Assembly (NCBI GenBank): GCA_028909515.1
Contig: GCA_028909515.1_4811.1
DNA length: 64,000 bases
Source: a phage
Direction: 5' to 3' (one strand)
The notes under the pieces: model-generated
Seen by the model: only the letters and a program-made list of their open reading frames with translations
Databases searched by the model: none
What the model was told of the DNA's origin: nothing
Program-made: the position numbers and the translations under genes
Part shown: in pieces, positions 44,730 through 59,884 of the stretch
Position numbering within the stretch: the stretch's first letter is position 1
Layout: the number at the start of each line of letters is the position of its first letter

Positions 44730-44749
44730 AACGCCAGAAATCTGGCGTT
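44730..44749 (-). terminator. Perfect 9 bp inverted repeat, possible weak terminator or operator
   Basis: AACGCCAGA, short loop, TCTGGCGTT. Only a weak T-tract on the minus strand. Confidence 0.3.
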
Positions 44750-44799
44750 GTATATTAATATAGTAAAACTCAATTTAAAGCAATATAACTGGTGAACTA

Positions 44800-45090: not shown

Positions 45091-45209
45091 CCGCTCACCC
45101 CTGCCAAATAATATGCCATATCCAATACATATAATAGCCCCAGGATGATGACAAGGGAAATGATTAATGTGTATTTCTTTACGGCTTTCATAAGTATCTA
45201 TACCTAAAT

Positions 45210-45476: not shown

Positions 45477-45765
45477 ACACCTCTTGATCTCTTTGCTGTT
45501 GAATCGCGGCTGAAGCTTCGTCAAAATTGACTGGCTCAACGGTGAACGTTGCACTGACTGTAAGGTCTTTAATAGTCAGCAGTGTGTTGAATCGCTCGGC
45601 CTGAAGATTCATAGCTACATGCGTGGATACGTTAAGGATTGCACCAACAACTTCCTCCACTGCGTAGCCTGCAAACAAGGGGAGAATCTGGTTGACAAGC
45701 TTAAGCTCGTTTTCAACACGAAGCTTTTGTGCTTCTTCAACGGTCATCATTTTTGGTTCGTTCAT
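45475..45765 (-). CDS. Hypothetical early protein
   Basis: 96 aa ORF. Confidence 0.4.
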   Translation of the reverse strand: MNEPKMMTVEEAQKLRVENELKLVNQILPLFAGYAVEEVVGAILNVSTHVAMNLQAERFNTLLTIKDLTVSATFTVEPVNFDEASAAIQQQRDQEV

Positions 45766-45972
45766 TTTTATTCCTTAACAAATTCAGAGTAGTGTTTGGC
45801 CGCAGCCGCTTGATGGTGAGCCATGACTCCTTGAAGGGTCGGAAGCTCTGCTGGTTTAGGTTCTAACGACTTTAACAGACATTCAACCTCGATGTTCAAT
45901 TCTTCGCTTTGCATAAATCACCTCTGCTTCAGTTCATAAAATGATTATAGTTACTATGAAAGTAAAAGCAAA

Positions 45973-47055
45973 CTATTTTATGCCACCTGCACGACGATTT
46001 ATCATGTCAAGTTGATTCTCAATATAAGGCATGACGATTGCTTCAACAAAAGCGGTCCAACCTTTCTTGCCTTCCCCTTTACGGTGACAGTCGTGGGCGC
46101 AACCGAACACAAATTCATGTTCTGCACCAGGGATAGGGCCGCGAAAGTAAGCGCCATACGGGTCGCCGTTGGTGTGTTCTTCACCCCAAGGACAGATTAT
46201 GCGGCACTTGCCTGACATGTTCTCGATGACGTCACCATCAGACCCTTCACCCATCTTGCTGCGCGCTAGAATCTGCTGGGCTATTTTATACCAAACAGCA
46301 TCATACTTGTATTCATCGACGTCAATTTGAATCTCACGCTTTTGCGGCATGACGACGTGAAAGCCAAATGCCTGACAAATGTCTTCGATGGTGTAGCGCA
46401 ATGAGTAGTCTGCATGGACAAGTCGGCAGCGGAACGGGTCGCCGTTCTCATCGACATATTTATAGGGGCCGTCATGAGTCACACGCTTGTTGTTGATGCA
46501 CCCAGGAACACGGCCCACGCGCGTTACGTCTTTAATCGTGTTGTCGCCGCCCTTCTTGAGTACCATGTTAACGAAAGACCCAAGGAACGCTTTGAACTGA
46601 ATAAGATGGTCAATCGGTTCTTTAAAGAAGTACCAAAGCTGGTGGTTGTTCGGTGAAGTCTCGACGATGACAGTCGGCTTCAGTCGCTCAAAAAAGAATT
46701 CCAAATCTAAATCGCCTTTGGACCCTTTACCGTGACCGATGTCGTCGACCATCATCGCCATGCCGTGACCAAAGGCCGACTCTGTACGCCAGTATCGCAT
46801 CTCACCCGTCTTTGGGTTGGGAGACTTACGCATTGAACTGATGCAAGCATAGCCGTTTTGGTGCTGCATGAGCGGCTTTCCCAACTTCCAAGGCTTAGGC
46901 CAGAAGCTGCTGTTAATCTTCTTGCCGCGCTCGTCAGTCTGCACCGTTGCTTCAGGCGCAAACACCGTCATGACGCGCTCATCTTCTGGAATGCCTCTTT
47001 GGAGTTCTGTTAAAAACTCTTCGATTATTTTTGCTTCTTCTCTTAAACTAGCCAT
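45973..47055 (-). CDS. Primase-polymerase-like protein (archaeo-eukaryotic primase type, putative)
   Basis: 360 aa. Motifs MVDDIGHG and NHQLWYF, C-terminal Cys/His cluster CPWGEEH...CAHDCH. Lies upstream of the helicase. Family is inferred. Confidence 0.45.
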   Translation of the reverse strand: MASLREEAKIIEEFLTELQRGIPEDERVMTVFAPEATVQTDERGKKINSSFWPKPWKLGKPLMQHQNGYACISSMRKSPNPKTGEMRYWRTESAFGHGMAMMVDDIGHGKGSKGDLDLEFFFERLKPTVIVETSPNNHQLWYFFKEPIDHLIQFKAFLGSFVNMVLKKGGDNTIKDVTRVGRVPGCINNKRVTHDGPYKYVDENGDPFRCRLVHADYSLRYTIEDICQAFGFHVVMPQKREIQIDVDEYKYDAVWYKIAQQILARSKMGEGSDGDVIENMSGKCRIICPWGEEHTNGDPYGAYFRGPIPGAEHEFVFGCAHDCHRKGEGKKGWTAFVEAIVMPYIENQLDMINRRAGGIK

Positions 47056-47215
47056 CTTTCTTTCCTTTGGTGATCAATACCTGCAGTATAATATTGAGTG
47101 ATACAAAGTCAACAATATTTACCATTTAGTTCACAATTTCGATTTACTTTGCTTTATACTATATCTGCAATTATACTATCAGAAAATATTTCCGCACTAA
47201 CAAAGGTCGCCTGAA

Positions 47216-47542
47216 ATGAACGAAAAAGAGACGAAGCAACGCGAACGTGCAACACACGTCGGAATCGTTGAGTCCTTCCTTAATACAAGATTGAATTCAA
47301 GCCTAACAATCATGCGATTCCTGGGTCAACCAGACAGAATCAAATTTATTTTTGCCGCAAATCCGGTATCGCTGTACATCCCTGTTGAATCCATGGCGTA
47401 CTTAGTGCGCGACGAGAAAGGATGGAAGATACCAAACACAACTGTTTTCTTCAGCCATGTTGATGGTGAGATGTTTGAACGAAAAGAAGATTGCCATTTT
47501 ATTCCAGTATATCTGGACCTTGAAAGCGTAGTGGAGTTATAA
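47216..47542 (+). CDS. Hypothetical protein
   Basis: 108 aa, first gene of the plus-strand block, stop overlaps the helicase start. Confidence 0.4.
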   Translation: MNEKETKQRERATHVGIVESFLNTRLNSSLTIMRFLGQPDRIKFIFAANPVSLYIPVESMAYLVRDEKGWKIPNTTVFFSHVDGEMFERKEDCHFIPVYLDLESVVEL

Positions 47543-48726
47543 TGAACATTCCAGAATTTAATGATGAGCCAGTTATTCAGTTTAACGCGCAACAAATCGA
47601 TGCCATCGAGAAGGCCGTTGCATGGTACAAGCGATTGCAGGACGGTAAAACGACGAAGCGCGTGTTTTTCATTGCTGGCTATGCAGGGACTGGTAAAACC
47701 TCTATTGCTCGCGAGATTGTGCGCCGATGTGTCGGTGAGTACGGCGCTATCTATATTGCGCCGACCGGAAAGGCTGCAAGCCGATTAAAGCAAAAAGGCT
47801 GTCGTGGAGCTAAGACCCTCCACCAGTTCATCTATAACGTGCGCGGCGTAAATGACGATAATGAGCCAATCTTTTCGAGAAAGTCAAAGCTGGATGAAAG
47901 GCCGCACCTTGTTGTACTCGATGAAGCGTCGATGGTTGGCGAGTGGGACACAGAGCGCCTTCTTGATCACCGCATCCCTGTCCTGGCATTAGGCGACATT
48001 GGACAAGTACCTCCGGTAAAATCCGCCGCCTACTTTACTGAAGATGCCGTTGACGTACTGTTAACAGAAATCATGCGGCAAGGGAAAGAGTCCAATATAA
48101 TCCGCGCCTCCTTCTTCGTGCGCCAAGGCAACCGCCTTCCTCCGCGTGAATACGATGACGTCAAAGTATTGGCAGAATCGCCGCGCGTTACTGCATTGAA
48201 GAAATTCATGGGCGAAGATGATCAAATTATTTGCTCCTATAATAGCACCAAAGATAAATGGAATTCATTATTACGGCAAGTGAGCGGACGTATAACGCCA
48301 ATGCCAGGAATCGGCGAGAAAGTTATTTGCACCTTCAACCAGCACGGGCCAGGATTCTGTAATGGCGAGCAAGGGATTGTTATTAGCTATGAGCCAGTGC
48401 CGGACTTTGAAAGGGACGAGGACGAGTCCAATGAAATAATGTATGTCAATTTGCGCTCGCTTACCGATGGCAAAGATATAAAGGTTAAGATTAATCCTCT
48501 TTCCTTCTCTACTGATCAGGAAGTGCGCAAAGAGGCCCAACGCGCTGTTGGAGGCATGGACTATGGCTATGTCATCACGGTGCACAAATCACAAGGCAGC
48601 GAGTGGGACAATGTGTGCGTGCTGGAAGAAATCTTACGCGGCGTTCCGTACTCCAAGATGATGTACACCGCTGTCACCCGTGCTAAGAAGAATCTGACCG
48701 TGTACCGTGATTTGAAAGCGCGTTAA
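47542..48726 (+). CDS. Dda/RecD-like SF1 DNA helicase
   Basis: 394 aa. Walker A AGYAGTGKTS, Walker B VVLDEASMV, C-terminal VITVHKSQGSEW. Confidence 0.85.
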   Translation: MNIPEFNDEPVIQFNAQQIDAIEKAVAWYKRLQDGKTTKRVFFIAGYAGTGKTSIAREIVRRCVGEYGAIYIAPTGKAASRLKQKGCRGAKTLHQFIYNVRGVNDDNEPIFSRKSKLDERPHLVVLDEASMVGEWDTERLLDHRIPVLALGDIGQVPPVKSAAYFTEDAVDVLLTEIMRQGKESNIIRASFFVRQGNRLPPREYDDVKVLAESPRVTALKKFMGEDDQIICSYNSTKDKWNSLLRQVSGRITPMPGIGEKVICTFNQHGPGFCNGEQGIVISYEPVPDFERDEDESNEIMYVNLRSLTDGKDIKVKINPLSFSTDQEVRKEAQRAVGGMDYGYVITVHKSQGSEWDNVCVLEEILRGVPYSKMMYTAVTRAKKNLTVYRDLKAR

Positions 48727-48885
48727 TGTTGACGTAAATTTACGAAAAATAAAACTGAAAATCAGTTTAATTAAAGTGGCATTGCCGCCATAGTTTTTAG
48801 TTGCTACTGGCGGCGACTGAAGGCATAATTAAGTTATCCCAAACGGGGAATATAAAATAAACTAATTTATTTAAGGACTGTGAAT

Positions 48886-49725
48886 ATGGCCGAAGCAATC
48901 AAAGTATTATCTAAAGAAGAAAAACAAGCAGCCGCAGCAGAACGTCGTCGCGTGGCTGAAGAAAAACGCCTGGCTAAAAAGAAAGAAGCCGAAGAAAAAC
49001 GCCAGAAGCGTGAGCAGGAAAAACAAGCCAAGCGTGAAGAAGCTGCGCTGAAACGCAAGCAGGCTGCTGATGAGAAGGCTCAGAAGCGTGCTGAAGAAGC
49101 AGCTAAGAAAGCTAAAGAGCGTGCAGAAAAGGCTGCTGCTAAGAAAGCAGAGCGTGAAGCCGCTAAAGCAGCAAAAGAAATCGAAAAGGCAAAGGCTAAA
49201 GAAGAAGCCAAGCGCCTGAAAGCTGAGCAGGCTGCGGCCAAGAAAGCAGAGCGTGATCAAGCCCGTGCTGCAGCGAAGGCCGAAAAAGAGAAGGCCAAAG
49301 AAGAAGCTAAAGCGAAACGCAAGGCAGAGCGTGAAGCTGCTAAGATTGCGGCGAAAGAAGCTGCAGAACAGCAGAAAGAACAGCGTAAGAAAGAAGCTGA
49401 AGAACGTCGCAAAGCCATCGCAGAACGTAAGGCTGCTAAAAAGGCAAACGGTCAGCGTCGTGCAAAAGCCACTCACTTCATCTACACTGGCAATGGCCTG
49501 AGCCAGCCGCAAGAGCATTCCACCCGTGGACGCGTTCTGGCGGCGATCAAAGAAGGCGAAGTTGGCGTGGCGCAGTCTATCGATGAGCTGGGCGAAAAAG
49601 TTAAAGATCAACTGTTTGGCGCTTCCGTTCGCTCCTACCTGAGCAAGCTGGAAGAGATGGGCCACATCGAGTTTGTCGATGTTGAATCCAACGGCGATGC
49701 CGAAGACGGTGATCAAGCGGAATAA
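48886..49725 (+). CDS. Charged Glu/Lys/Ala/Arg-rich protein with a globular C-terminal domain
   Basis: ATG at 48886 with an AAGGA site (track begins at a GTG, 48880). About 190 aa of KAAK/EEKR low-complexity sequence, then an ~80 aa non-repetitive tail. Confidence 0.55.
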   Translation: MAEAIKVLSKEEKQAAAAERRRVAEEKRLAKKKEAEEKRQKREQEKQAKREEAALKRKQAADEKAQKRAEEAAKKAKERAEKAAAKKAEREAAKAAKEIEKAKAKEEAKRLKAEQAAAKKAERDQARAAAKAEKEKAKEEAKAKRKAEREAAKIAAKEAAEQQKEQRKKEAEERRKAIAERKAAKKANGQRRAKATHFIYTGNGLSQPQEHSTRGRVLAAIKEGEVGVAQSIDELGEKVKDQLFGASVRSYLSKLEEMGHIEFVDVESNGDAEDGDQAE

Positions 49726-49751
49726 CCTGTAGGACGGTTATAGCGGTAATT

Positions 49752-49778
49752 GACCCACACTTGTTGTGGGTCTTTTTT
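49752..49778 (+). terminator. Rho-independent terminator
   Basis: GACCCACA, 5 nt loop, TGTGGGTC, then TTTTTT. Confidence 0.65.
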
Positions 49779-49804
49779 CGTCTGTACTAAATAGAAATGA
49801 CTTG

Positions 49805-49833
49805 TTGCTGTAAAATAATTTAGCTATTATACT
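49805..49833 (+). promoter_or_regulatory. Sigma70-like promoter upstream of the flavoprotein gene
   Basis: TTGCTG, 17 nt spacer, TATACT. Confidence 0.4.
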
Positions 49834-49857
49834 TCTCATATCACCCACAAAGGACAA

Positions 49858-50853
49858 ATGAACATGAAACAACCTGTAATGATTATCGGCGGCGGACTGG
49901 CAGGACTTATCACCGCGTGTCACTTCCCGAACTCTATTGTGTACGAAGCAGGGGAACGAGCGCAACAGCACAAGGCACTGCTACGCTTTCGCGGCGAAGA
50001 AGTAAGCCGTATTACCGGAATCCCTTTTAAGGCCGTGACAGTTGACAAGGCTGTGTATTTTCGCGGTAACTACTACCACGACCATTGCCCAATCAACCTT
50101 GCCAATATGTATTCCATGAAGGTCACCAATCAGTTTGGCAGTCGTTCAATCATGAAGCTTAAAACTGCAACGCGTTATATTGCGCCTGATGACTTTTATG
50201 ATCAGCTTGTCGACAAACTGGGTGACCGCATATTCTTTAATACTCCGGTTGATACTCTTTGCGGCTATAGCGAGACGCCAATCATCAACACGTCGCCGCT
50301 GCCAGTAATGATGAAGCTTGCTGGGATTGATCAAAAGCTTGATTTCTCATTTGATAAAGCAAACATTCGCGTTTACCGCTTTAAGATTAAACGTAAGTGT
50401 GATTTGTATCAGACAATTTACTTCCCTGACTACTCCGTCAGAACTTACCGCGCATCAATTACTGGTGACACGCTTATCATTGAAACAATTCCTTTGGTCA
50501 GCGTGAGTGAAGCTGCAGTTGAAGCCGCTGGCGGCATCACCCGTTATCGCGACATGAAGCTGCGCGCGGAAGTGGACGAAGTTCTGACCGCTTTTGGTCT
50601 TTCATGGAATGACATCTCTTTGGAAGAAGTTGAAAAGGTTGACCAGAAGTATGGCAAGATTGTAGACATTCCGAAAGACTTGCGACACGCCTTACTGCTC
50701 CAGCTGACTATGGATTTGAACGTATTCAGTGTTGGCCGATTCGCTACATGGCGCAACATCTTGCTTGATGACGTAGCTCATGACCTTGTTGAAGTTGAAA
50801 AACTCATCAAAGCAAATAACTATCAAAAATTTGCTTATATTGCTAATAAATAA
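49858..50853 (+). CDS. FAD/NAD(P)-binding oxidoreductase-like protein
   Basis: 331 aa. N-terminal Rossmann motif VMIIGGGLAGL. Exact family not resolved. Confidence 0.5.
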   Translation: MNMKQPVMIIGGGLAGLITACHFPNSIVYEAGERAQQHKALLRFRGEEVSRITGIPFKAVTVDKAVYFRGNYYHDHCPINLANMYSMKVTNQFGSRSIMKLKTATRYIAPDDFYDQLVDKLGDRIFFNTPVDTLCGYSETPIINTSPLPVMMKLAGIDQKLDFSFDKANIRVYRFKIKRKCDLYQTIYFPDYSVRTYRASITGDTLIIETIPLVSVSEAAVEAAGGITRYRDMKLRAEVDEVLTAFGLSWNDISLEEVEKVDQKYGKIVDIPKDLRHALLLQLTMDLNVFSVGRFATWRNILLDDVAHDLVEVEKLIKANNYQKFAYIANK

Positions 50854-50895
50854 TTTGCTTTCTTCTTCAATGTGCGTATACTTTAATCATTGAAG
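50854..50895 (+). promoter_or_regulatory. Sigma70-like promoter with an inverted repeat straddling the -10
   Basis: TTTGCT, 17 nt spacer, TATACT. CTTCAATG at 50865-50872 pairs with CATTGAAG at 50888-50895. Confidence 0.4.
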
Positions 50896-50918
50896 CAGAA
50901 CTCATAGAGGAAACGAAA

Positions 50919-51365
50919 ATGAAACGAATCACTGGAATCGCGCTTGCCGCGACTGCTATTCTCGGCACCATGTATATGGAAGCGACTGAAGCCGCCGTCC
51001 GTACTTCCGATTCAATCGCTGTTTACGATTGTGAAGCGATGGACGGTAAGACCGCAGCAACGACTGGTGCGAAGATTACCACTTACATCGGTGTGAATGA
51101 GCAAGAAGGTCTGAATATTCAGATTCAGGGATTCACGGGAAAAGGCGCCAACCGGACTCCGTGGATGCAGCGTTTCACTTTCGTTCAACCTCGTTCAACT
51201 GGCGCCTTTATCAACCTGATTGGTGAAAACCGTTCTGGTGCAGAAATCTTTACATCAATGAGTTCCAATAATGAACCAAAGAAAAGTTTTCAGTTGCTTT
51301 ATAACGCACAATTCGTTTATCATTGCACCTTCTCTGGTGATCAGCAACTAGTTAACTACCGTTAA
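50919..51365 (+). CDS. Secreted or periplasmic protein
   Basis: 148 aa. Signal-peptide-like N-terminus MKRITGIALAATAILG. Confidence 0.5.
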   Translation: MKRITGIALAATAILGTMYMEATEAAVRTSDSIAVYDCEAMDGKTAATTGAKITTYIGVNEQEGLNIQIQGFTGKGANRTPWMQRFTFVQPRSTGAFINLIGENRSGAEIFTSMSSNNEPKKSFQLLYNAQFVYHCTFSGDQQLVNYR

Positions 51366-51378
51366 TAGGATAATTAAA

Positions 51379-52182
51379 ATGAAAGTTGAATTAATTCGAT
51401 ACACCCAAGATGCACTTGACCTTTTGCTGGAAACAAAGAACACGCGCATGACTGGTAAGCCAGTCTCTGAGATGACAGAATCAGAGAAGCAAGAGCACTG
51501 GCGATACATGCTTGACACAATCAAGTCGCCTTTTGATTTTGTGGACTATATCTTTGACATCACTGATGTATCAAAGAATATGACTCATCAGATGGTGCGC
51601 ACGCGCACAGGTGCATATCAAGAACGTACAAGCCGCGCTCAGGAATCTTCTGCTTTTGATGCGATTCGTCCTGCCAAATTTACTTACCCAGAGGATGATC
51701 CAAAGGGATGGACTCGTCATGACGAGAAGGCTGCTGAACTGGCAGAGAAATGGGATGATGCGATGGCCACGATTGACGCCCTCTACCAAGAGCTTCGCGC
51801 GGCTGGCGCAGAGATTCAAGATGCACGTGCCGTGTTGCCTTCTAATATGCAAACGCATATCATGGCAAAGTTCAACTTGCGAACGCTGCAACAGATGGCG
51901 TCAAACCGCTTGTGCACGCGCACCCAAGGCGAGTATCAGGAAGTTTTCCGTGCGATGGTAGCTGAAGTCCTCAAGGTGCATCCGTGGGCTAATCCTTTAC
52001 TACAGCCGCAATGCATCGGCATGGGCAAGTGCGCATTCCCTCGCCATGGCAAGGCCCATTGCCCTTGGTATCGTGATTGGATGGATACCACTGCACAGCA
52101 AGAAGAATTACGCATCCAGTTTTGGAATGCAATGCCAATCACCAATAATCCGGTTGCCAAAGATGGAGTATCAAAAGGATGA
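51379..52182 (+). CDS. ThyX-like protein (flavin-dependent thymidylate synthase fold) with altered signature motif
   Basis: 267 aa. C-terminal ARAVLPSNMQTHIMAKFNLRTLQQMASNRLC resembles ThyX. The canonical RHR...S motif position reads VRTRTGAYQERTS. Confidence 0.55.
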   Translation: MKVELIRYTQDALDLLLETKNTRMTGKPVSEMTESEKQEHWRYMLDTIKSPFDFVDYIFDITDVSKNMTHQMVRTRTGAYQERTSRAQESSAFDAIRPAKFTYPEDDPKGWTRHDEKAAELAEKWDDAMATIDALYQELRAAGAEIQDARAVLPSNMQTHIMAKFNLRTLQQMASNRLCTRTQGEYQEVFRAMVAEVLKVHPWANPLLQPQCIGMGKCAFPRHGKAHCPWYRDWMDTTAQQEELRIQFWNAMPITNNPVAKDGVSKG

Positions 52183-53051
52183 GCATTAAAAACAGCGAAA
52201 TCTTAAACGTATTCGACCTTGACGGAACGCTGTTTGATGACCGTTGGCGCTTAGACCGCATCAAGGTGGCAGGTCCGTTGTCAGACTATGATGACTATCA
52301 CAGCGGTATTGGTTATGATCAGTTCTATCCTCACATTGCATCAGCAGTAGAGTCGGCATCTCTTCGCGGTGAGGCGGTTGAATATTGGACTGCAAGGCCA
52401 GAAAAATACAGACAAGTGACTTTTGAACGTCTGGACAATGTTTTCCCTTTTGATGAATTTACAATCAAGATGAGAGACTATGGCGACAAACGTCCATCAA
52501 CTATCATGAAATCTGCATGGCTATCGCACGCATTGCGGCACGGTGATTATCGAATCATCAATGTATTCGACGACCGACAAGACGTACTCGCGCGGATGCA
52601 AGATGAAGCATTGTATTATAATTCCGTTGCTCAAAATAAAATCGCTTTTACATTTAATCTTTGCAAGGCAGGTGAAGTGGTGCAACAATTAGCAATTGAT
52701 CCAAGCGCAACAGGGCAAGAAGAGACTAAGGCTGTGGAAGTTGAACAATCTCCGGCAACTGCCGCCGATATTCTTGATGCAATGGCAGCAACCTTCCGTG
52801 AGCGCAACGCTGTCTATGGCGATAACGCTGTGATGGTAGGTCAGGTTATGCAGGTGCTTTTCCCTAATGGCGTAACGTTGAAAACGCCGGAAGACTACCA
52901 CATGTGGCATCTGTTCGAGCTTAAGATTGTCAAGCTTACACGCTTTGCAATCAGCGGCCTGAAGCACGAAGACTCTATACACGATGATGGTGTTTACAGC
53001 GCCATGTGTGAACGTCTTGTAAACACCCATAATATTAATTTCAATAAATAG
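52179..53051 (+). CDS. HAD-family phosphatase fused to an unassigned C-terminal domain
   Basis: 290 aa. Motif I LNVFDLDGTLFDD and motif IV INVFDDRQD in the N-terminal ~150 aa. Confidence 0.55.
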   Translation: MSIKNSEILNVFDLDGTLFDDRWRLDRIKVAGPLSDYDDYHSGIGYDQFYPHIASAVESASLRGEAVEYWTARPEKYRQVTFERLDNVFPFDEFTIKMRDYGDKRPSTIMKSAWLSHALRHGDYRIINVFDDRQDVLARMQDEALYYNSVAQNKIAFTFNLCKAGEVVQQLAIDPSATGQEETKAVEVEQSPATAADILDAMAATFRERNAVYGDNAVMVGQVMQVLFPNGVTLKTPEDYHMWHLFELKIVKLTRFAISGLKHEDSIHDDGVYSAMCERLVNTHNINFNK

Positions 53052-53095
53052 TTTACTTGTGCGTTTCGATGAGTTATATTTACCTCATCGAAACG
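53052..53095 (+). promoter_or_regulatory. Sigma70-like promoter with an 11-12 bp inverted repeat straddling the -10
   Basis: TTTACT, 17 nt spacer, TATATT. CGTTTCGATGAG pairs with CTCATCGAAACG. The leader TCATCGAAACGAA recurs at 59915. Confidence 0.45.
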
Positions 53096-53116
53096 AAGTC
53101 CAAAAAGGATAAATAA

Positions 53117-53800
53117 ATGAAAAAAGTAATTGTTGTAACAGGTTCCAATTCCGGTCTTGGTAAATCTATTTTTGACACCCTTGGCGCTTACGGTCATAAC
53201 GTGCTTGGCATCGATTCAGCATACGGATATGACGTCCGCGATGCTAAACAGATGAAAGAAATTTTAAGCCCATATGATGTTGAAGGCTTGATCAACTGTG
53301 CTGGTGTCAACTCTAACAACTGGTTCGAAGATGTTAACTACGAAGAGTTCAATCGCGTTATGCACACCAACGCCTTCTCTTTCGTCAACACGACTCAGGC
53401 CGCGCTGAAAAGTCTTATCGACAACAAAGGCTTTGTGATCAACATCGTTTCCAACGCTGCGCATATTCCTATGACGTCCAGCTTGTGTTATAATGCATCC
53501 AAGGCTGCTGCGCTTATGATCAGCAAGCAGATGGCTCACGAACTTACGCCTAAGTACGGCATCACGGTATTCTCTATTAGTCCTAACAAGTTGCGCGGCA
53601 CTGGCATGTCTAAACAGATTGAAGATGCCGTTTGTGCGACTCGCGGCTGGACTCCTGAATACGCTGCTGAATACCAGAAAAAGGCATTGATGAATGGATT
53701 GGAGACTGAGCCGCAAGTAATTGCCGACTTCATTCGCCATATCTTAATTACGGGCGCATGGCGCTTTATGTCTGGCACTGATATTCCATTTGGTAAATAA
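53117..53800 (+). CDS. Short-chain dehydrogenase/reductase (SDR) family oxidoreductase
   Basis: 227 aa. Motifs VIVVTGSNSGLGKS, NCAG and catalytic YNASK. Confidence 0.75.
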   Translation: MKKVIVVTGSNSGLGKSIFDTLGAYGHNVLGIDSAYGYDVRDAKQMKEILSPYDVEGLINCAGVNSNNWFEDVNYEEFNRVMHTNAFSFVNTTQAALKSLIDNKGFVINIVSNAAHIPMTSSLCYNASKAAALMISKQMAHELTPKYGITVFSISPNKLRGTGMSKQIEDAVCATRGWTPEYAAEYQKKALMNGLETEPQVIADFIRHILITGAWRFMSGTDIPFGK

Positions 53801-53896
53801 ATCACGAACATTTTAAGTTGTCACACCCGCTCCTGAAAAGAAACAGGACGAAGACAACACAGTAATTAATCAATAATATTTAATTAAGGAAACAAA

Positions 53897-54448
53897 ATGC
53901 CACATTTTAAAATTGAACAAATCGCCCTGTCAATTCCAGATGCTCAGCGCGCACAGGATTTCTTGGCTAAAATCGGCCTGACGGAATGGTTCCATGATCA
54001 TGTTGTTGCTACTGGTCGCGTATTTGAAGCTGATGACTTTAAAGGTCGTCGCGACGATTGCACCAATGAAGCTGACTTGCGCTTCAACTATCAGGCTGGC
54101 AACGGTACTGATGGCGGCGCTGGTAAGCCTCTTGAGCTTGAAATACTTGACTACACAATGGGCTGCAACTGGATTAACGAAAACATCGAATATATCGATG
54201 CGCATGACAATCAGGTCAGCCACCTTGGCATGCATGTGACTGCCGCTGAACTTGCTGAATGGCGTAAGTTCTTTAGCGAAGAAGGCATTCAGGTTGCACA
54301 GGAAGTTGTAACTGACTCTCATACCAACCCGAACATTGCTGGTCAACGTCGTTACAACTATGTGATCTTTGATACGCGTGAAATCATCGGTGTTGATTTG
54401 AAGTTTATCGTGCGCTTGAATCAAGACGGTACTCCGTACACTGTATAA
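53897..54448 (+). CDS. Hypothetical protein, possibly glyoxalase/VOC-like
   Basis: 183 aa. N-terminal KIEQIALSIPDAQRAQDFLAKIGL pattern. Weak assignment. Confidence 0.35.
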   Translation: MPHFKIEQIALSIPDAQRAQDFLAKIGLTEWFHDHVVATGRVFEADDFKGRRDDCTNEADLRFNYQAGNGTDGGAGKPLELEILDYTMGCNWINENIEYIDAHDNQVSHLGMHVTAAELAEWRKFFSEEGIQVAQEVVTDSHTNPNIAGQRRYNYVIFDTREIIGVDLKFIVRLNQDGTPYTV

Positions 54449-54464
54449 CGAATCGTGAATCTGT

Positions 54465-54489
54465 GGCCGTCCTAATGGGCGGCCTTTTT
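54465..54489 (+). terminator. Rho-independent terminator
   Basis: GGCCGTCC, 4 nt loop, GGGCGGCC (one G-U pair), then TTTTT. Confidence 0.6.
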
Positions 54490-54502
54490 GTAGGAGGCTA
54501 AT

Positions 54503-55045
54503 GTGTTATTTCTCCCTTATGACTTCGAAACAACCGGATTGACCGTGCACCCGAAAGCGCCGCTTGGGATGCAGCCGCGCCCTATTGAATTTGCAGGTCT
54601 GTTGACAGACGGCAAAGAGATTCTTGAAACGTTTGAATTCATAATTAATCCTGAAATCGTGATTGAAGAAATTATCACAAAGATTACCGGATTAACAAAT
54701 GAAGACCTTGAGTGCAATCCACCATTCATCAATTTCGTCCCGCAGCTAAAAGAAATCTTCAAGAAGACTGATGCAACTATCGCGCACAACCATGCGTTCG
54801 ATAAAAACATTCTTGATTATGCACTACAGCGCGAAGGACTTACGCTTGATGATGTTAATTTTCCAGAAATAAACATATGTACAGTTGAGCAAACCTTGCC
54901 TATTTTTGGCCGAAGAGTTAAGCTTCAAGAGCTGTATGAATTATATTTCGGAAAATATGAACAGAAGCACCGTGCATTAGACGACGTAATATTACTGCAC
55001 AAAGTCTGCCAACAAATTGGCGTATATGACATCTGGAGTAAATAA
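54503..55045 (+). CDS. DnaQ-like 3'-5' proofreading exonuclease
   Basis: 180 aa. GTG start with AGGAGG site. Exo motifs LPYDFETTGL, AHNHAFDKNIL and HRALDDV. Stop overlaps the polymerase start. Confidence 0.8.
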   Translation: MLFLPYDFETTGLTVHPKAPLGMQPRPIEFAGLLTDGKEILETFEFIINPEIVIEEIITKITGLTNEDLECNPPFINFVPQLKEIFKKTDATIAHNHAFDKNILDYALQREGLTLDDVNFPEINICTVEQTLPIFGRRVKLQELYELYFGKYEQKHRALDDVILLHKVCQQIGVYDIWSK

Positions 55046-57942
55046 TGTTTCCACAATTGAGAGTTCGCAGCGGTTACACGTTCAAAGAAGTTTATGGACG
55101 GCATCCTGAAATTATAGCACGGCTCAAAGAGTTGGGCTGCGAAGTCGCGGCATTAGTTGATAACAACACATGGGGTCACGTCCGCTGGGAAAAGGAATGC
55201 CAGAAAAATGATATTAAGCCTATGTTTGGGATGGAGATTCCAATCATCGACCCTGATGCGGACCCTAAAAAGGGATTCAAACCGAAGGCTTGGATATTGG
55301 CCCTTGACTTAAAATCTTTTTACAACGCTACGACACTTGCAACGCAGCGTGGTGGCCTTACCCGTGCAGAGTTCGGTGCGCTTGATGGCGTCGTTAAATT
55401 CTGTGGCGGTGCCGTTGAGCTGCTGCGGCCAGAGGACTACGATTATATAGACGTCAACCCATCATCGTTCCTTTTGGCTAAGCGCCAGGTGTTGGCTCAC
55501 CGCAGCAACGGAAGGCCGCTGGTTTTAACCGGATACAACCACATGCCTTCACCTAAGCACGTTGACTTTGCTTATGCTTGGGAAGTGCGCGACACGGTCA
55601 AGCCGCACTGCATCGTTGACGCGGAAGACTTGCGCAAACAGCTTAAAGGCATCTTGACTGAAGATGAGCTCAATCAGGCAACGGCCAATGCTGTTGACAT
55701 AGCAAACGGCATAGTCGGACTTGACCTGAAATTGCGTAAGGCACCGATTATTCACCTTGCTGGTGACATGGTAAAGCTTGCTCGCGAGGGGATGGAGTAT
55801 CGTCTCAAAGCAGGTCACATCAAAGAGTGGACTCAGGAATATGAGGACCGCTTCAACGAAGAAATTCACCAGATTCAGCTGAAAGATTTCGACTCATACT
55901 TTCTGGTAGTAGCGGACCTTGTACGATTCGCAAAAACAAAAATGCTCGTCGGGCCTGCTCGCGGCTCATCGGCTGGTTCACTTGTTTGCTATTGCCTCGG
56001 CATCACGGAAGTGGACCCAATCCCGTATAAGCTGCTGTTTGCCCGATTCATCGACGTAAGCCGCGCCGACCTTCCTGACATCGACATCGACTTTGAAGAT
56101 ACCAAACGCTACATGGTGTTTGATTATCTTAAAGAGAAATATGGCGAAATGAACGTTGCAAAGCTTGGCAACATCAACACGCTTAAGGCCAACTCAGTAA
56201 TGGCGCAGGTTGGTAAGAAGTTCAACATTGGATACCACGAAACGGCCAACATTAAAAACGCACTGCTTGAATACTCATCCGGTGACGCCCGTTATGGTCA
56301 CGGCCTGGAGGATACCTTTGCAACAACGACCACGGGCCAAGAGTTTGTGGCGAAATATCCTGACGCCGCGCGTTGCATGGGTGACCTTGAGATTCACCCG
56401 TCTCACACAGGTGTTCACGCAGCGGGAATCATTGTGTGTAATGACCCAATCTCTGATTACTGTACTGTAACTGCAGAAGGGATTGCGCAAATCGATAAGC
56501 CTGACAGCGAATACCTAAACCTTTTGAAGCTTGATGCGCTGGGCCTTCGTACTCTCGGAATCATTTCTGATACTGGCGTGATAGATGCTGAAACGCTGTA
56601 CGGAATCAAGCTTGATGACCAAAGCGTCCTTGACATCCTTAACGAAAACAAGATGTCAGGCATCTTCCAGTTTGAAGGCGACGCTGTACGCTCAGTAACC
56701 AACTTTGTGCACGTTGATAACTTTAACAAAATCGATAACCTGACAGCACTTGGCCGACCTGGCCCGTTGTCGTCCGGTATGGCCCAGAAATACATTGAAC
56801 GCGCGGCAGGACGTGCGCCGATTGAGTACGACGTGCCGCAGCTTGAGCCGTACTTAAAAGAGACTTACGGCGTGTTTCTTTACCAAGAGCAAATCATGGC
56901 CGTGGTTAAAGAGATTGGTTCATTTGACTGGGCGAAAACATCCGCTGTACGTAAGGCGATGTCAGGTCGTAAGGGTGAGGAATACTTTAACAAGCTTGGC
57001 GAAGACTTCGTTGCAGGAGCAATAAATAACGGCGTACCGGAAGCGGATGCAAGAAAGCTTTGGCAAGCGATGGCGACGTTCGGGTCATGGGGCTTTAACA
57101 AGTCACACTCCGTATCATACGCGGTCGTGACCTACTGGACCTTGTGGCTTAAGCGACACTACCCGTTGGAATTTGCCGCTGCTTGCTTACGCGCTGCTAA
57201 GGACGAAGACCAGACGATTGCGATATTACGTGAACTTGCGAAGGAAGGCGTGGATTATGTGCCAATCGACCCTGATCACTCTTCAATGAACTGGACCATC
57301 GCTAACGGAAAGCTAATCGGCGGCATCATGAACGCAAAAGGATATGGCATGGTGAAGGCAATGAAGTATATCGAAGCACGTGAAGCCGGAACCTTAACGC
57401 AAAAGCAAAAGGATGCATTGGCCAATGCTGAAGTCAAATACGGCGACCTTACAGAGATGCACACAAAGTTCGGATGGGCATATAATGACCCCTATCTGAT
57501 TGGCGTTACTTCCGGTGCTTCAATACGCCAGATGAAGGAAGTCGGCGATGACGAGCGTGCAATAGTGATCGGCAAGTTGACCAAGAAAGTGCTGGCTGAC
57601 GAGAACGAAGCGACACGCATCCGTAAACGTCTTGAGCGCGGCATTTATACAAAGCACGGCAAACTTAAAAAGGGTCTTCAAGCTGATGGCCGCTACGCAG
57701 AGTTTGACCAGTATGGAAACAAGCTTGAGACTCAGTTCATTGACCTTATGTGCAAGGACGATTCGACCGACTCGCCAATGCGCTTCAGGATTCGTCCAGA
57801 GAAGTTCCAGAAATACGGGAAATACATTGCAGAGAACGTCGGGAACGGCGCATTCTTCCTGATGAAAGGCCGCAAACTTGAAGGCATTGACATGTTCATC
57901 GTCGACGTTATCAAACAGGTGTATCCAGATGGCAACAAATAA
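55045..57942 (+). CDS. DNA polymerase III alpha-like (DnaE family) replicative polymerase
   Basis: 965 aa. Catalytic LPDIDIDFED and SYAVVTYWTLWLKRHYPLEFAAACL. N-terminus QLRVRSGYT sits where PHP domains carry a His-x-His metal site. Confidence 0.8.
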   Translation: MFPQLRVRSGYTFKEVYGRHPEIIARLKELGCEVAALVDNNTWGHVRWEKECQKNDIKPMFGMEIPIIDPDADPKKGFKPKAWILALDLKSFYNATTLATQRGGLTRAEFGALDGVVKFCGGAVELLRPEDYDYIDVNPSSFLLAKRQVLAHRSNGRPLVLTGYNHMPSPKHVDFAYAWEVRDTVKPHCIVDAEDLRKQLKGILTEDELNQATANAVDIANGIVGLDLKLRKAPIIHLAGDMVKLAREGMEYRLKAGHIKEWTQEYEDRFNEEIHQIQLKDFDSYFLVVADLVRFAKTKMLVGPARGSSAGSLVCYCLGITEVDPIPYKLLFARFIDVSRADLPDIDIDFEDTKRYMVFDYLKEKYGEMNVAKLGNINTLKANSVMAQVGKKFNIGYHETANIKNALLEYSSGDARYGHGLEDTFATTTTGQEFVAKYPDAARCMGDLEIHPSHTGVHAAGIIVCNDPISDYCTVTAEGIAQIDKPDSEYLNLLKLDALGLRTLGIISDTGVIDAETLYGIKLDDQSVLDILNENKMSGIFQFEGDAVRSVTNFVHVDNFNKIDNLTALGRPGPLSSGMAQKYIERAAGRAPIEYDVPQLEPYLKETYGVFLYQEQIMAVVKEIGSFDWAKTSAVRKAMSGRKGEEYFNKLGEDFVAGAINNGVPEADARKLWQAMATFGSWGFNKSHSVSYAVVTYWTLWLKRHYPLEFAAACLRAAKDEDQTIAILRELAKEGVDYVPIDPDHSSMNWTIANGKLIGGIMNAKGYGMVKAMKYIEAREAGTLTQKQKDALANAEVKYGDLTEMHTKFGWAYNDPYLIGVTSGASIRQMKEVGDDERAIVIGKLTKKVLADENEATRIRKRLERGIYTKHGKLKKGLQADGRYAEFDQYGNKLETQFIDLMCKDDSTDSPMRFRIRPEKFQKYGKYIAENVGNGAFFLMKGRKLEGIDMFIVDVIKQVYPDGNK

Positions 57943-58351
57943 CCGTGAACAGAAATACATATTCGTGCCTTTGAAGAAGCATTCAGAATCAATCTTGAAG
58001 CTTCAAAGAATCGAATCAATGACGGGTGATGGTGTGCCGGACGTAATCGGCACCAACCGGAAAGGGCGCGGCTTTTGGCTTGAAATGAAGTTCTTTGAAT
58101 CGTGGCCTGCAAGGGCCACCACTCTTCCTTTCAAGAGCGCATTTGAGAAAGGTCAACAAAGCTTTTTGACTTCTTGGAGTGATTGGAAATTCTCGTCATT
58201 CGTGTTGCTGAAGGTGGACTCTGAAAAGGCTTATTATTTAGTTCACCCTTCATTGCGATTAAAAGAATATACTAAGCATGAGATTCTGGCTATGGTCGCC
58301 GCGAGCGGGTCCATCCATCACATCATCAAGTATTTAGAGGAATTGTCATGA
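57929..58351 (+). CDS. VRR-NUC-like nuclease
   Basis: ATG MATNNREQ overlaps the polymerase 3' end. Motif GVPDVIGTNRKGRGFWLEMKF resembles a PD-(D/E)xK site. Confidence 0.5.
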   Translation: MATNNREQKYIFVPLKKHSESILKLQRIESMTGDGVPDVIGTNRKGRGFWLEMKFFESWPARATTLPFKSAFEKGQQSFLTSWSDWKFSSFVLLKVDSEKAYYLVHPSLRLKEYTKHEILAMVAASGSIHHIIKYLEELS

Positions 58352-59871: not shown

Positions 59872-59884
59872 TATCAAAAATAAT

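What the first reader, a model, noticed from the sequence alone, without database searches (positions are those of the whole stretch)
49858..54448. Cluster of six enzyme-like genes that may form a nucleotide modification or salvage pathway
Consecutive co-oriented genes encode a Rossmann-type flavoprotein, a signal-peptide protein, the ThyX-like protein, a HAD phosphatase fused to an unassigned domain, an SDR oxidoreductase and a possible VOC-fold protein. They are bracketed by terminators. This exceeds the usual phage thymidylate module and could represent a DNA hypermodification route. This is inference from gene content only.
Basis: inference. Interest (0 to 1): 0.6.

Follow-up and report, generated by a model that had tools for sequence, protein, structure and literature searches.

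The report
Candidate thymine-hypermodification gene cluster, coliphage
This E. coli phage gene cluster, built around an unusual flavin thymidylate-synthase relative and a partner flavoprotein, is the best candidate for the still-unknown enzymes that attach sugar-like groups to thymine in phage DNA, and the phage's own sequence looks shaped by such protection.

Summary
The six co-oriented genes and both bracketing terminators are real. The window is a Wifcevirus, an E. coli myovirus and sister genus of Pseudomonas Pbunavirus.

Three genes form a conserved core:
- a phage-specific flavoprotein (O1) whose fold is closest to UDP-galactopyranose mutase;
- a divergent ThyX (ThyX*) that keeps every dUMP-binding residue but has lost five residues conserved in canonical ThyX, four of them histidines;
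- a T4-PNKP-type HAD phosphatase fused to a DUF6378-like helical domain.

O1 and ThyX* have matching distributions in 50,697 phage records. The gene order O1>ThyX*>HAD-DUF>[SDR>VOC]>exonuclease>PolIIIα holds in about 80 metagenomic loci. SDR and VOC are an optional pair. The signal-peptide gene is a Wifcevirus-only insertion.

A 2025 preprint showed sugar-derived thymidine hypermodification at TG in Pbunavirus and knew no biosynthetic genes. BASEL found Wifcevirus restriction-resistant with no known mechanism.

I found a sequence footprint of TG-context protection. Of 95 GATC sites, 94 are T-flanked (p about 1e-25). No TG/CA-containing palindrome is avoided (0 of 16), against 20 of 48 others. 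An unrelated podovirus sharing only this module and the polymerase shows the same pattern. Three control phages do not.

The hypermodification reading is therefore partly supported. It rests on indirect evidence, and the chemistry is inferred.

The parts
49752..49772 (+). Upstream intrinsic terminator-like hairpin (8-bp stem, T-run) closing the preceding gene.
   Evidence: Terminators are annotated at the same place in Mansfield and in WFH and WFC.
49858..50853 (+). O1: a phage-specific FAD flavoprotein (GxGxxG motif IIGGGLAGL, pI 8.5) with a fold like UDP-galactopyranose mutase or protoporphyrinogen oxidase. Core gene, always paired with ThyX*.
50919..51365 (+). O2: a 148-aa protein with an N-terminal signal-like hydrophobic segment. 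It is a Wifcevirus-only insertion and probably not part of the pathway.
   Evidence: No family hit. It is found only in Wifcevirus loci L001 and L005-L007 among more than 80 loci. Pbunavirus has five unrelated small ORFs in the same slot.
51379..52182 (+). ThyX*: a divergent flavin-dependent thymidylate synthase homolog. The dUMP-binding residues are kept. Five residues conserved in canonical ThyX are replaced, and the RHR motif reads RTR.
   Evidence: Pfam Thy1, E = 1e-30. TIGR02170 score 83.1, below the cutoff of 87.9. Alignment to T. maritima ThyX. In 80 of 80 clade members H53>I, H59>F, H79>T/S/N, H178>R and Y91>V/A/I/T (never Tyr), while Q75, R78, R80, R90, R147, R165 and R174 are invariant.
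52179..52703 (+). O4 N-terminal domain: a capless HAD phosphatase of the T4 PNKP 3'-phosphatase type (motif DLDGT). There is no kinase domain.
52758..53051 (+). O4 C-terminal domain: a conserved four-helix domain resembling DUF6378. Signature: FRERNAVYGDN...KLTRF..SG..H.DSIHD..VY. It is a separate ORF in some relatives and is replaced by DUF3310 in phage Ss1.
   Evidence: 14 of 19 homologs hit DUF6378, best E = 1e-4. Four helices, pLDDT above 90. Separate HAD and DUF ORFs, for example in L031 and L041. Ss1 orf32 is HAD plus DUF3310.
53117..53800 (+). O5: a classical short-chain dehydrogenase/reductase (TGSNSGLG; Ser-Tyr-Lys, YNASK). An accessory gene present or absent together with O6.
   Evidence: adh_short, E = 3e-31. 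Best PDB hits are FabG-type reductases, E = 1e-12. Co-presence with VOC across loci.
53897..54448 (+). O6: a VOC (glyoxalase/dioxygenase-fold)-like protein. Conserved candidate metal ligands are Q8, E82, H109 and D167. Accessory gene.
   Evidence: Glyoxalase_4, E = 0.004, below the cutoff. 12 of 16 homologs match, best E = 7.7e-6. Invariant columns. No PDB sequence hit.
54465..54484 (+). Downstream intrinsic terminator-like hairpin (8-bp stem, 7 GC pairs, T-run).
   Evidence: Annotated in Mansfield.
54503..57942 (+). DnaQ-type 3'-5' exonuclease (54503-55045) and the PolIIIα-type replicase (55045-57942). They are invariably downstream of the cluster and share its distribution.
   Evidence: RNase_T, E = 1e-21. 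Synteny. Apart from O1 and ThyX*, these are the only genes detectably shared with podovirus Ss1. 376 records carry a close PolIIIα, against 362 for O1.
1..64000 (.). Window-wide sequence footprint consistent with protection of 5'-TG-3' thymines. GATC survives almost only as TGATC or GATCA. Palindromes containing TG/CA are never depleted, while many others are purged.
   Evidence: 95 GATC sites against 257 expected. 46 are TGATCA, 48 are flanked on one side, and 1 is unflanked (at 27343) against 45.5 expected, p = 1e-25. Strongly avoided 6-bp palindromes: 0 of 16 with TG/CA, 20 of 48 without, p = 0.0013. All 7 residual GATATC, GAGCTC, GGTACC and GGCGCC sites are T-flanked. Of 19 EcoRI sites, 8 are flanked on both sides, p = 2e-4.

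Best explanation
The conserved core of the cluster is the biosynthetic module for a thymidine hypermodification placed on thymine in 5'-TG-3' context. The core is the O1 flavoprotein, ThyX*, and the PNKP-type HAD phosphatase fused to a DUF6378-like domain. The modification would be of the sugar or sugar-alcohol kind found chemically in Pbunavirus F8 and 14-1. It would shield the DNA from restriction.

Proposed steps (all inferred):
1. ThyX* still binds dUMP and uses flavin chemistry to build the C5 one-carbon unit. Either it supplies dTMP, or it releases an activated or trapped 5-methylene or 5-hydroxymethyl species instead of reducing it. The clade-wide loss of five residues conserved in canonical ThyX, four of them His, marks altered chemistry on the side of the active site facing away from the nucleotide.
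2. O1, a basic flavoprotein with a fold like UDP-galactopyranose mutase or amine oxidase, couples or prepares a phosphosugar-derived group at the thymine C5 substituent. Because the mark is sequence-specific, at least one step must act on DNA.
3. The capless PNKP-type HAD removes the phosphate that remains on the attached sugar. This type of phosphatase acts on polynucleotide-borne phosphates. The helical DUF domain would aid substrate binding.
4. Where present, SDR and VOC tailor the sugar by keto-reduction, or by epimerisation or isomerisation. Wifcevirus should therefore carry an adduct of a different mass from Pbunavirus.
5. O2 takes no part.
For: Shown by others:
- Pbunavirus virion DNA has T-derived nucleosides of 362 and 390 Da replacing about one quarter of T.
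- Enzymes with TG in their recognition sites are blocked.
- Wifcevirus resists all tested restriction-modification systems except EcoP1_I, with no known protection mechanism.

Shown here, the footprint:
- 26% of T in the window is followed by G.
- 94 of 95 GATC sites are T-flanked; 1 is unflanked against 45.5 expected.
- Strongly avoided 6-bp palindromes: 0 of 16 with TG/CA, 20 of 48 without.
- All residual EcoRV, SacI, KpnI and GGCGCC sites are T-flanked, and EcoRI sites are enriched for flanking T.
- Podovirus Ss1 shows the same pattern: 0 of 51 GATC sites unflanked, and 0 of 16 against 17 of 41 palindromes. By phmmer it shares only O1, ThyX*, the exonuclease and PolIIIα with the window, plus a HAD-DUF3310 analogue.
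- The GATC flank pattern also appears in the Pantoea and Serratia loci and in L034, a metagenomic locus that lacks SDR and VOC.
- The controls phiEco32, N4 and SSU5 avoid 6-7 of 16 TG/CA palindromes, and phiEco32 and SSU5 show no GATC flank bias; N4 has a single GATC and cannot be tested for it.

Shown here, the genes:
- The distributions of O1 and ThyX* match: 359 and 357 records with at least 80% coverage, and identical counts for the main genera (Pseudomonas, Escherichia, Serratia).
- Gene order is conserved in about 80 loci.
- Clade-wide ThyX* substitutions; the phiEco32 ThyX keeps those residues.
- No other enzyme genes are annotated in the genome apart from a MazG-like protein and a ligase.
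- The PNKP-type fold of the HAD domain.

Precedent: thymidylate-synthase homologs repurposed with flavin, and a UGM serving in a DNA glycosylation pathway (PMC13326640).
Against: - No chemistry has been done on any Wifcevirus DNA. Modification is inferred from a sequence footprint, a restriction-resistance phenotype and a sister genus.
- The footprint cannot be separated from the exonuclease and PolIIIα, whose close clade matches O1 in extent.
- The one lineage with O1, ThyX* and HAD near other genes, a Rhizobium jumbo phage, gave no TG signal: 2 of 15 against 2 of 37 palindromes.
- F8 itself shows only a weak palindrome signal, p = 0.08.
- Conserved synteny could reflect vertical inheritance of a replication module.
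- No glycosyltransferase, kinase or obvious DNA-binding modifier was found.
- O1 could not be aligned to UGM at sequence level, so its active-site residues are untested.
- F8 and 14-1 carry different adducts, yet O1 is 97% and ThyX* 94% identical between them. The specificity determinant may lie elsewhere.
- F8 DNA is cut by EcoRI whereas Wifcevirus resists EcoRI in vivo, so the systems may differ.
Confidence: 0.55

Rival explanations
1. Ordinary nucleotide-supply module. ThyX* simply makes dTMP for rapid replication. The HAD is a nucleotidase or end-healing phosphatase. O1 is a flavin reductase or oxidoreductase supporting ThyX*. SDR and VOC are auxiliary metabolic genes. Any TG modification is made by other, unrecognised genes among the many small hypothetical ORFs.
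For: - All dUMP-binding residues of ThyX are intact and the Pfam match is strong.
- The cluster sits inside the replication block next to the exonuclease, PolIIIα and helicases.
- In the Rhizobium phage the same genes neighbour dUTPase and ribonucleotide reductase.
- Public annotations call these genes thymidylate synthase, polynucleotide kinase and FabG.
- F8 and 14-1 differ in adduct but hardly in O1 or ThyX*.
Against: - It gives no reason for the strict O1-ThyX* pairing across 360 genomes.
- It gives no reason for the clade-wide loss of five conserved ThyX residues or the score below the equivalog cutoff.
- Podovirus Ss1 shares the footprint but only these genes and the polymerase.
- No other enzyme-like genes are annotated in Wifcevirus.
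Confidence: 0.2
2. Pre-replicative variant. The cluster makes a modified dUMP or dTMP analogue entirely at the nucleotide level. The dedicated PolIIIα and exonuclease pair then incorporates or retains it preferentially when the next base is G, so the TG pattern comes from the replicase and not from a DNA-modifying enzyme.
For: - ThyX* retains a mononucleotide 5'-phosphate-binding site.
- The close PolIIIα and exonuclease clade always accompanies the module and matches it in extent.
- A MazG-like pyrophosphatase is conserved in Wifcevirus and F8.
- No recognisable DNA-binding modifier is present.
Against: - To my knowledge, no replicase is known to choose between two dNTPs according to the next templating base.
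- No dNMP kinase is annotated.
- The PNKP-type capless HAD is the kind that acts on polymer-borne phosphates.
- The Rhizobium phage carries the module without a close PolIIIα nearby.
Confidence: 0.1
3. A DNA or RNA end-healing and anti-defence function together with unrelated morons. The HAD-DUF protein repairs 3'-phosphate ends made by host nucleases. SDR, VOC and O2 are host-takeover genes. The cluster is a transcription unit only by position.
For: - The closest structures to the HAD domain are the Pnkp1 and T4 PNKP repair phosphatases.
- PHROGs labels the SDR a moron or auxiliary metabolic gene.
- O2 is clearly a lineage-specific insertion.
Against: - There is no kinase or ligase partner in the fusion.
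- SDR and VOC are present or absent as a pair at a fixed position in dozens of divergent loci, which is unlike morons.
- This reading does not explain the TG footprint or the O1-ThyX* coupling.
Confidence: 0.07

Closest known systems
TG-context hypermodified thymidine of Pbunavirus F8 and 14-1 (Yee et al., bioRxiv 2025, PMC12191111)
   Same: - Sister genus with the same replication block.
- It carries orthologs of O1 (about 39% identity), ThyX* (about 49%), HAD-DUF6378, the exonuclease and PolIIIα in the same order.
- About a quarter of T is affected, which matches the TG fraction here, 26%.
- The window's footprint points to the same dinucleotide.
   Different: - Only the chemistry is known for Pbunavirus, and only the genes are analysed here.
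- Pbunavirus lacks SDR, VOC and O2.
- F8 DNA is cut by EcoRI, whereas Wifcevirus resists EcoRI in vivo.
- No Wifcevirus DNA has been analysed.
5-hmdU-derived thymidine hypermodification pathways (phages M6, ViI, SP10, ΦW-14; Lee et al. 2018 and 2021, PMC8989533)
   Same: - Partial, context-dependent replacement of T by a bulky C5-methyl-substituted derivative that blocks restriction.
- The starting point is a thymidylate-synthase-family enzyme.
   Different: By my knowledge of the literature, those pathways use a ThyA-type dUMP hydroxymethylase, a 5-HMUDK kinase and aGPT-Pplase, PLP or radical-SAM enzymes. None is annotated or detected here. This cluster has a ThyX-fold enzyme and a UGM-like flavoprotein instead.
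Canonical flavin-dependent thymidylate synthase ThyX (Pfam PF02511, TIGR02170; for example T. maritima 1O26)
   Same: Same domain. The dUMP- and FAD-contacting residues Q75, R78, R80, R90, R147, N163, R165 and R174 are conserved.
   Different: - RHR reads R[T/S/N]R.
- H53, H59 and H178 are replaced, and Y91 becomes V/A/I/T, in every clade member.
- The score is below the equivalog cutoff.
- It is always paired with O1.
UDP-galactopyranose mutase (Glf), including the true UGM used for DNA galactosylation by Rhizobium phage RL38J1 (PMC13326640)
   Same: - N-terminal GxGxxG motif.
- The C-terminal GR[LF]A[TE][YW][KR] motif resembles Glf GRLAEYKYYDM.
- There is precedent for a UGM in a phage DNA-sugar pathway.
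   Different: - No detectable sequence homology: no Pfam hit, and hhalign probability 4%.
- 36 to 140 residues shorter, with a reduced helical domain.
- Protoporphyrinogen oxidases and amine oxidases score nearly as well.
T4 polynucleotide kinase/phosphatase, 3'-phosphatase domain, and Pnkp1
   Different: There is no kinase domain, so the database name 'polynucleotide kinase' is wrong. The domain is fused, or adjacent, to a DUF6378- or DUF3310-type helical domain.
Base J (β-D-glucosyl-hydroxymethyluracil) of kinetoplastids
   Same: A sugar on the thymine C5-methyl position in a fraction of T. The Pbunavirus masses fit hmdU plus pentose (390) and hmdU plus tetritol (362) as O-linked adducts (my arithmetic on the data).
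   Different: By my knowledge of the literature, base J needs a JBP/TET dioxygenase and a glucosyltransferase. Neither is present here. C-linked isomers (dU plus pentityl, dU plus hexosyl) fit the masses equally well.

Membership tests
ThyX (flavin-dependent thymidylate synthase) | Thy1 domain (PF02511) above the gathering threshold | tested here: met
   E = 1.1e-30, 107 bits against a cutoff of 24.8, covering profile positions 2-191 of 191.
ThyX (flavin-dependent thymidylate synthase) | NCBIfam equivalog TIGR02170 at or above its curated cutoff | tested here: not met
   83.1 bits against a cutoff of 87.9.
ThyX (flavin-dependent thymidylate synthase) | ThyX signature RHRxxSxxxxSxR and the conserved His53 and His59 (T. 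maritima numbering) | tested here: not met
   The window reads RTRTGAYQERTSR. H53>I, H59>F, H79>T/S/N, H178>R and Y91>V/A/I/T (never Tyr) in 80 of 80 clade members. The phiEco32 ThyX keeps them.
ThyX (flavin-dependent thymidylate synthase) | dUMP-binding residues Q75, R78, R80, R90, R147 and R174 | tested here: met
   Invariant in 80 of 80.
ThyX (flavin-dependent thymidylate synthase) | Catalyses dUMP plus CH2-THF plus NADPH to dTMP | not testable with these tools
   Needs an enzyme assay or thyA complementation.
UDP-galactopyranose mutase (Glf) | UGM three-domain fold with an N-terminal FAD-binding GxGxxG | tested here: met
   [not shown]
UDP-galactopyranose mutase (Glf) | Sequence membership (Pfam GLF or NAD_binding_8; a profile match to Glf) | tested here: not met
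   No Pfam or NCBIfam hit. No PDB sequence hit with either the single sequence or the profile. hhalign against E. coli Glf gives probability 4%.
UDP-galactopyranose mutase (Glf) | UDP-Galp-binding Arg, Tyr and Trp residues of the active-site cleft and mobile loop | tested here: inconclusive
   No residue-level alignment could be obtained. Only the C-terminal GRxAxY/W-K/R motif is visibly shared. The helical domain is shorter.
T4 PNKP-type HAD phosphatase | Capless HAD fold with a DxDxT nucleophile motif | tested here: met
   [not shown]
T4 PNKP-type HAD phosphatase | Associated P-loop polynucleotide kinase domain | tested here: not met
   The C-terminal part is a four-helix DUF6378-like domain with no P-loop.
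Known thymidine hypermodification systems (5-hmdU route) | ThyA-family dUMP hydroxymethylase plus a 5-hmdU DNA kinase (5-HMUDK) | tested here: not met
   Neither is annotated in a complete Wifcevirus genome, nor found among the window ORFs scanned.
Known thymidine hypermodification systems (5-hmdU route) | Non-canonical T-derived nucleoside in virion DNA | not testable with these tools
   Only indirect evidence: the TG footprint and restriction resistance. Direct data exist for Pbunavirus.
Classical SDR | TGxxxGxG cofactor motif and the Ser-Tyr-Lys triad | tested here: met
   TGSNSGLG, and S...YNASK aligned to FabG. adh_short, E = 3e-31.
VOC (glyoxalase/dioxygenase) superfamily | Paired βαβββ modules with a metal site; a Pfam match | tested here: inconclusive
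   The window copy scores 17.8 bits, below the cutoff of 27. 12 of 16 homologs match, best E = 7.7e-6. Q8, E82, H109 and D167 are invariant. No structure was predicted.

The most novel reading that the evidence does not exclude
ThyX* and the UGM-like flavoprotein O1 would constitute a previously unknown, purely flavin-based route to sugar-bearing thymine in DNA. The route would be independent of ThyA-type hydroxymethylases, 5-hmdU kinases, JBP/TET dioxygenases and Leloir glycosyltransferases.

A ThyX-type or UGM-type flavin-N5 iminium intermediate would carry a one-carbon unit or sugar carbon onto uracil C5. A PNKP-like phosphatase would finish the job on DNA. The SDR and VOC pair would diversify the adduct between phage lineages.

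The module is spread over more than 1,100 protein clusters at 50% identity. It would therefore mark a large, overlooked class of hypermodified phage genomes, including the Pbunavirus phages used in therapy.
Probability: 0.4. Interest if true: 0.9.

Novelty: new variant of a known kind. Interest (0 to 1): 0.8.

Why it matters
Pbunavirus phages are among the most used therapeutic Pseudomonas phages. Their DNA was only recently found to be hypermodified, and no biosynthetic genes are known (PMC12191111). [quoted passage not shown]

This analysis does three things:
- It names a specific, testable gene set shared by both genera.
- It gives a sequence-only diagnostic, the TG-flank footprint, that extends the prediction to Cronobacter, Pantoea and Serratia phages.
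- It predicts that Wifcevirus carries a different adduct because of the SDR and VOC pair.

If confirmed, the finding would add a new enzymology for C5-pyrimidine modification. It would explain the host-range and defence phenotypes (restriction-modification systems, END nucleases) of a large phage group. It would also supply enzymes for making restriction-proof DNA.

Tried and rejected
1. Residue-level test of UGM membership. hhalign of the O1 profile against E. coli Glf aligned only the GxGxxG segment, probability 4%. PDB sequence searches with O1 alone and with its profile found nothing. The active-site comparison was abandoned.
3. A VOC profile against PDB sequences gave no hit.
4. Comparing F8 with 14-1 to find the gene that sets the adduct type. 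O1 is 97%, ThyX* 94% and the HAD fusion 81% identical, the last differing mostly by a linker indel. The very divergent ORF70 (57%) has no family. This was not decisive.
5. Separating PolIIIα from O1 by distribution failed because the close polymerase clade matches O1 in extent.
6. The Rhizobium jumbo phage, as an independent lineage, was uninformative for palindromes and shows no GATC avoidance.
7. Papers on Wifcevirus isolates contain no restriction-digest or modification data.
8. A search for remote cellular homologs of O1 found only the tight phage family.
9. 'Salvage pathway' was rejected: no kinase, phosphorylase or deaminase is present.
10. 'FabG or fatty-acid auxiliary gene' was rejected for the SDR, because it is locked in position with VOC inside the module across divergent loci.

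Full report
**What the window is**

The region is 93-96% identical to 29 sequenced Wifcevirus genomes, including WFH, WFC, ECML-117, FEC19, Mansfield and BASEL Bas98-101. These are E. coli and Shigella myoviruses of 66-72 kb. They are the sister genus of the Pseudomonas Pbunavirus, or PB1-like, phages.

Six + strand ORFs occupy 49858-54448 exactly as described. The two best terminator-like hairpins in the neighbourhood lie at 49752-49772 and 54465-54484. The same terminators are annotated in relatives.

Upstream lie a Dda-like helicase and a K/A/E-rich protein. Immediately downstream lie a DnaQ-type exonuclease and a PolIIIα-type replicase.

**What each gene is**

- **O2 (50919-51365).** It has a signal-like N-terminus and no relatives outside Wifcevirus.
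- **O3 (51379-52182).** A ThyX homolog, Pfam E = 1e-30, but below the NCBIfam equivalog cutoff.
- **O4 (52179-53051).** It overlaps the ThyX stop codon by 4 nt. It has two domains.
  - After a low-confidence linker comes a four-helix domain with a strongly conserved signature. It weakly matches DUF6378 in 14 of 19 homologs.
  - There is no kinase domain, so the public name 'polynucleotide kinase' is wrong.
- **O5 (53117-53800).** A classical SDR.
- **O6 (53897-54448).** VOC-like at the family level: 12 of 16 homologs match Glyoxalase_4.

**The cluster has a conserved core and optional parts**

I retrieved 80 viral metagenome loci encoding O1 relatives at 40-99% identity and located homologs of every gene. 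The order O1 > ThyX > HAD > DUF6378 > [SDR > VOC] > exonuclease > PolIIIα recurs throughout. It holds even in contigs that lack the Wifcevirus/Pbunavirus helicase and K/A-rich genes.

- SDR and VOC are present together or absent together. They are absent from Pbunavirus, Cronobacter phage Ss1 and about a dozen other loci.
- HAD and the helical domain are sometimes separate ORFs.
- O2 occurs only in Wifcevirus. Pbunavirus has five unrelated small ORFs in that slot.

In the 50,697-record phage collection the distributions of O1 and this ThyX clade match. They have 359 and 357 records with at least 80% coverage, and the same counts for the main genera: Pseudomonas 292, Escherichia 27, Serratia 9. 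Below that, identity drops sharply to ordinary ThyX at 30% or less.

**The ThyX is a distinct subfamily**

I aligned it to T. maritima ThyX. All 80 O1-linked ThyX sequences keep the dUMP and FAD contacts Q75, R78, R80, R90, R147, R165 and R174. All 80 have replaced H53 (by I), H59 (by F), H79 of the RHR motif (by T, S or N), H178 (by R) and Y91 (by V/A/I/T, never Tyr).

Position 53 is the residue mutated in the PDB entries that were the best sequence hits: His, Ala and Asp variants are visible. From my knowledge of the literature, H53 lies on the folate/NADPH face of the flavin.

Another coliphage ThyX, from phiEco32, keeps all five residues. I call the variant ThyX*.

**External evidence that changes the picture**

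*Yee et al. (bioRxiv 2025, PMC12191111).*
- Pbunavirus F8 and 14-1 virion DNA contains T-derived nucleosides of 362 and 390 Da.
- These replace about a quarter of thymidines.
- Every restriction enzyme with TG in its site was blocked.
- I found no later paper in the library that names the genes.

*The BASEL paper (PMC11990801).*
- The exception is EcoP1_I. By my knowledge its site is AGACC, which contains no TG. Only 30 of the 86 sites in the window overlap a TG through a flanking base.

**A sequence footprint of TG protection in this window**

- 26% of thymines are followed by G.
- GATC is under-represented, 95 sites against 257 expected.
  - 46 of the survivors are TGATCA and 48 are T-flanked on one strand.
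  - Only one, at 27343, has neither flank, against 45.5 expected (p about 1e-25).
- 20 of the 48 six-base palindromes without TG/CA are strongly depleted, and 14 of those have zero copies. None of the 16 palindromes that contain TG/CA is depleted (Fisher p = 0.0013).
- All seven surviving GATATC, GAGCTC, GGTACC and GGCGCC sites are T-flanked.
- EcoRI sites are enriched for TGAATTCA: 8 of 19, p = 2e-4.
- The flank enrichment is clearest for sites that begin with G, the ones where a 5' T creates TG: 33 double-flanked 6-bp sites against 14.1 expected, with smaller departures for other flank and first-base combinations.

**Independent replication and controls**

Cronobacter phage Ss1 is a 42-kb podovirus. 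Its only proteins detectably shared with the window are O1, ThyX*, the exonuclease and PolIIIα. Its orf32 is a HAD plus DUF3310 analogue of O4. It shows the same footprint. None of its 51 GATC sites is unflanked, against 21.5 expected. Depleted palindromes number 0 of 16 with TG/CA and 17 of 41 without (p = 0.0012).

The GATC signature also appears in Pantoea phage Kyle, in the Serratia-type loci L012 and L014, in L034, which lacks SDR and VOC, and in other metagenomic loci.

F8, the experimentally modified phage, shows the same tendency more weakly: 1 of 15 against 12 of 38.

Three enterobacterial phages without the module behave differently.

| Control phage | TG/CA palindromes depleted | GATC unflanked, observed vs expected |
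|---|---|---|
| phiEco32 | 6 of 16 | 42 vs 43.6 |
| N4 | 7 of 16 | not informative (1 GATC site in 50 kb) |
| SSU5 | 6 of 16 | 147 vs 131 |

Pooled, 0 of 32 TG/CA palindromes are depleted in the two module-bearing genomes, against 19 of 48 in the controls.

**What I conclude**

This phage's DNA has evolved as if thymines in TG were shielded from sequence-specific nucleases. That agrees with the chemistry found in its sister genus and with the BASEL phenotype.

By comparative elimination, the determinant lies within O1, ThyX*, the HAD-DUF fusion, the exonuclease and PolIIIα. A complete Wifcevirus annotation contains no other enzyme-like genes except a MazG-like protein and a ligase.

I therefore assign the core of the cluster to thymidine hypermodification, at about 0.55 confidence.

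**Inferred steps**

- ThyX* handles dUMP and the C5 one-carbon unit with altered chemistry.
- O1 couples or prepares a sugar-derived group.
- At least one step acts on DNA, because the mark is sequence-specific.
- The PNKP-type phosphatase removes a residual phosphate.
- SDR and VOC tailor the sugar.

My mass arithmetic shows that both an O-linked and a C-linked structure fit 362 and 390 Da.
- O-linked: hmdU plus tetritol, and hmdU plus pentose.
- C-linked: dU plus pentityl, and dU plus hexosyl.

The C-linked version is what a flavin-N5 iminium mechanism of the ThyX or UGM type would give. This cannot be decided here.

There are recent precedents: thymidylate-synthase homologs repurposed with flavin, and a true UGM feeding a phage DNA glycosylation pathway (PMC13326640).

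**Caveats**

- No Wifcevirus DNA chemistry exists.
- The footprint cannot be separated from the polymerase clade.
- The Rhizobium jumbo phage that carries the module next to dUTPase and ribonucleotide reductase shows no TG signal.
- F8 and 14-1 differ in adduct but barely in O1 or ThyX*.
- O1's active site could not be compared with UGM.
Part of it is confirmed by the alignment.

**Verdict**

The unit is a three-gene core with an optional two-gene extension, not six genes, and 'salvage' is not supported.

If verified, this is a new biosynthetic variant of a known kind of system, phage thymidine hypermodification. It makes an open question directly testable: which genes make the Pbunavirus modification, and why is Wifcevirus restriction-resistant?

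Noticed in passing
window 1-64000: Extreme purging of six-base palindromes. 14 have zero copies, including GGATCC, AGATCT, CTCGAG, CCCGGG, GCTAGC and CGATCG. HindIII (50 sites), SalI (27) and HpaI (25) sites are about twofold over-represented.
   Followed up: partly
window, all 74 CCGG sites: CCGG occurs almost only as TCCGGY or RCCGGA. That is exactly the set left after removing RCCGGY, TCCGGA and CCSGG. It suggests avoidance of three separate restriction specificities that TG modification cannot cover.
   Followed up: partly
window 27343-27346: The single GATC in 64 kb that is not flanked by a 5' T on either strand.
   Followed up: no
window 48880-49725: A K/A/E-rich low-complexity protein (phrog_4765, annotated 'TolA'), conserved upstream of the cluster in Wifcevirus and Pbunavirus-type loci. 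A long antisense ORF (48907-49716) is probably a compositional artefact.
   Followed up: no
window 62257-62880: A 207-aa protein annotated MazG-like pyrophosphatase in Bas101 and F8, with no Pfam hit here. It is conserved in both genera next to the ligase and could belong to an extended nucleotide-pool control function.
   Followed up: partly
window 60206-61683: Two genes matching the Pam3 gp33-like (DUF7307) and Pam3 gp34-like families, downstream of the helicase. Function unknown.
   Followed up: no
L085:1431-2735 (14-1 ORF70) and L086:11394-12590 (F8 ORF70): This hypothetical protein is only 57% identical between F8 and 14-1, while its neighbours are 91-99% identical. The two phages carry different thymidine adducts and differ in END-nuclease sensitivity. 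The protein has no family assignment.
   Followed up: partly
L001:10107-10322 (phage Mansfield): Mansfield has an extra 71-aa ORF between SDR and VOC. The window has only a 96-bp gap there (53801-53896).
   Followed up: no
L003:8280-8726 (Cronobacter phage Ss1 orf31): An HNH homing endonuclease is inserted between the HAD-DUF3310 gene and the exonuclease. A Seg-like homing endonuclease follows O1 in the Rhizobium phage (L004:6909-7559). The module seems to attract mobile endonucleases.
   Followed up: no
L091 (phage N4, first 50 kb): N4 has a single GATC where 164 are expected, and zero copies of at least 28 six-base palindromes. BASEL also describes N4-like phages as restriction-resistant without a known mechanism. 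Here the route seems to be site avoidance.
   Followed up: no
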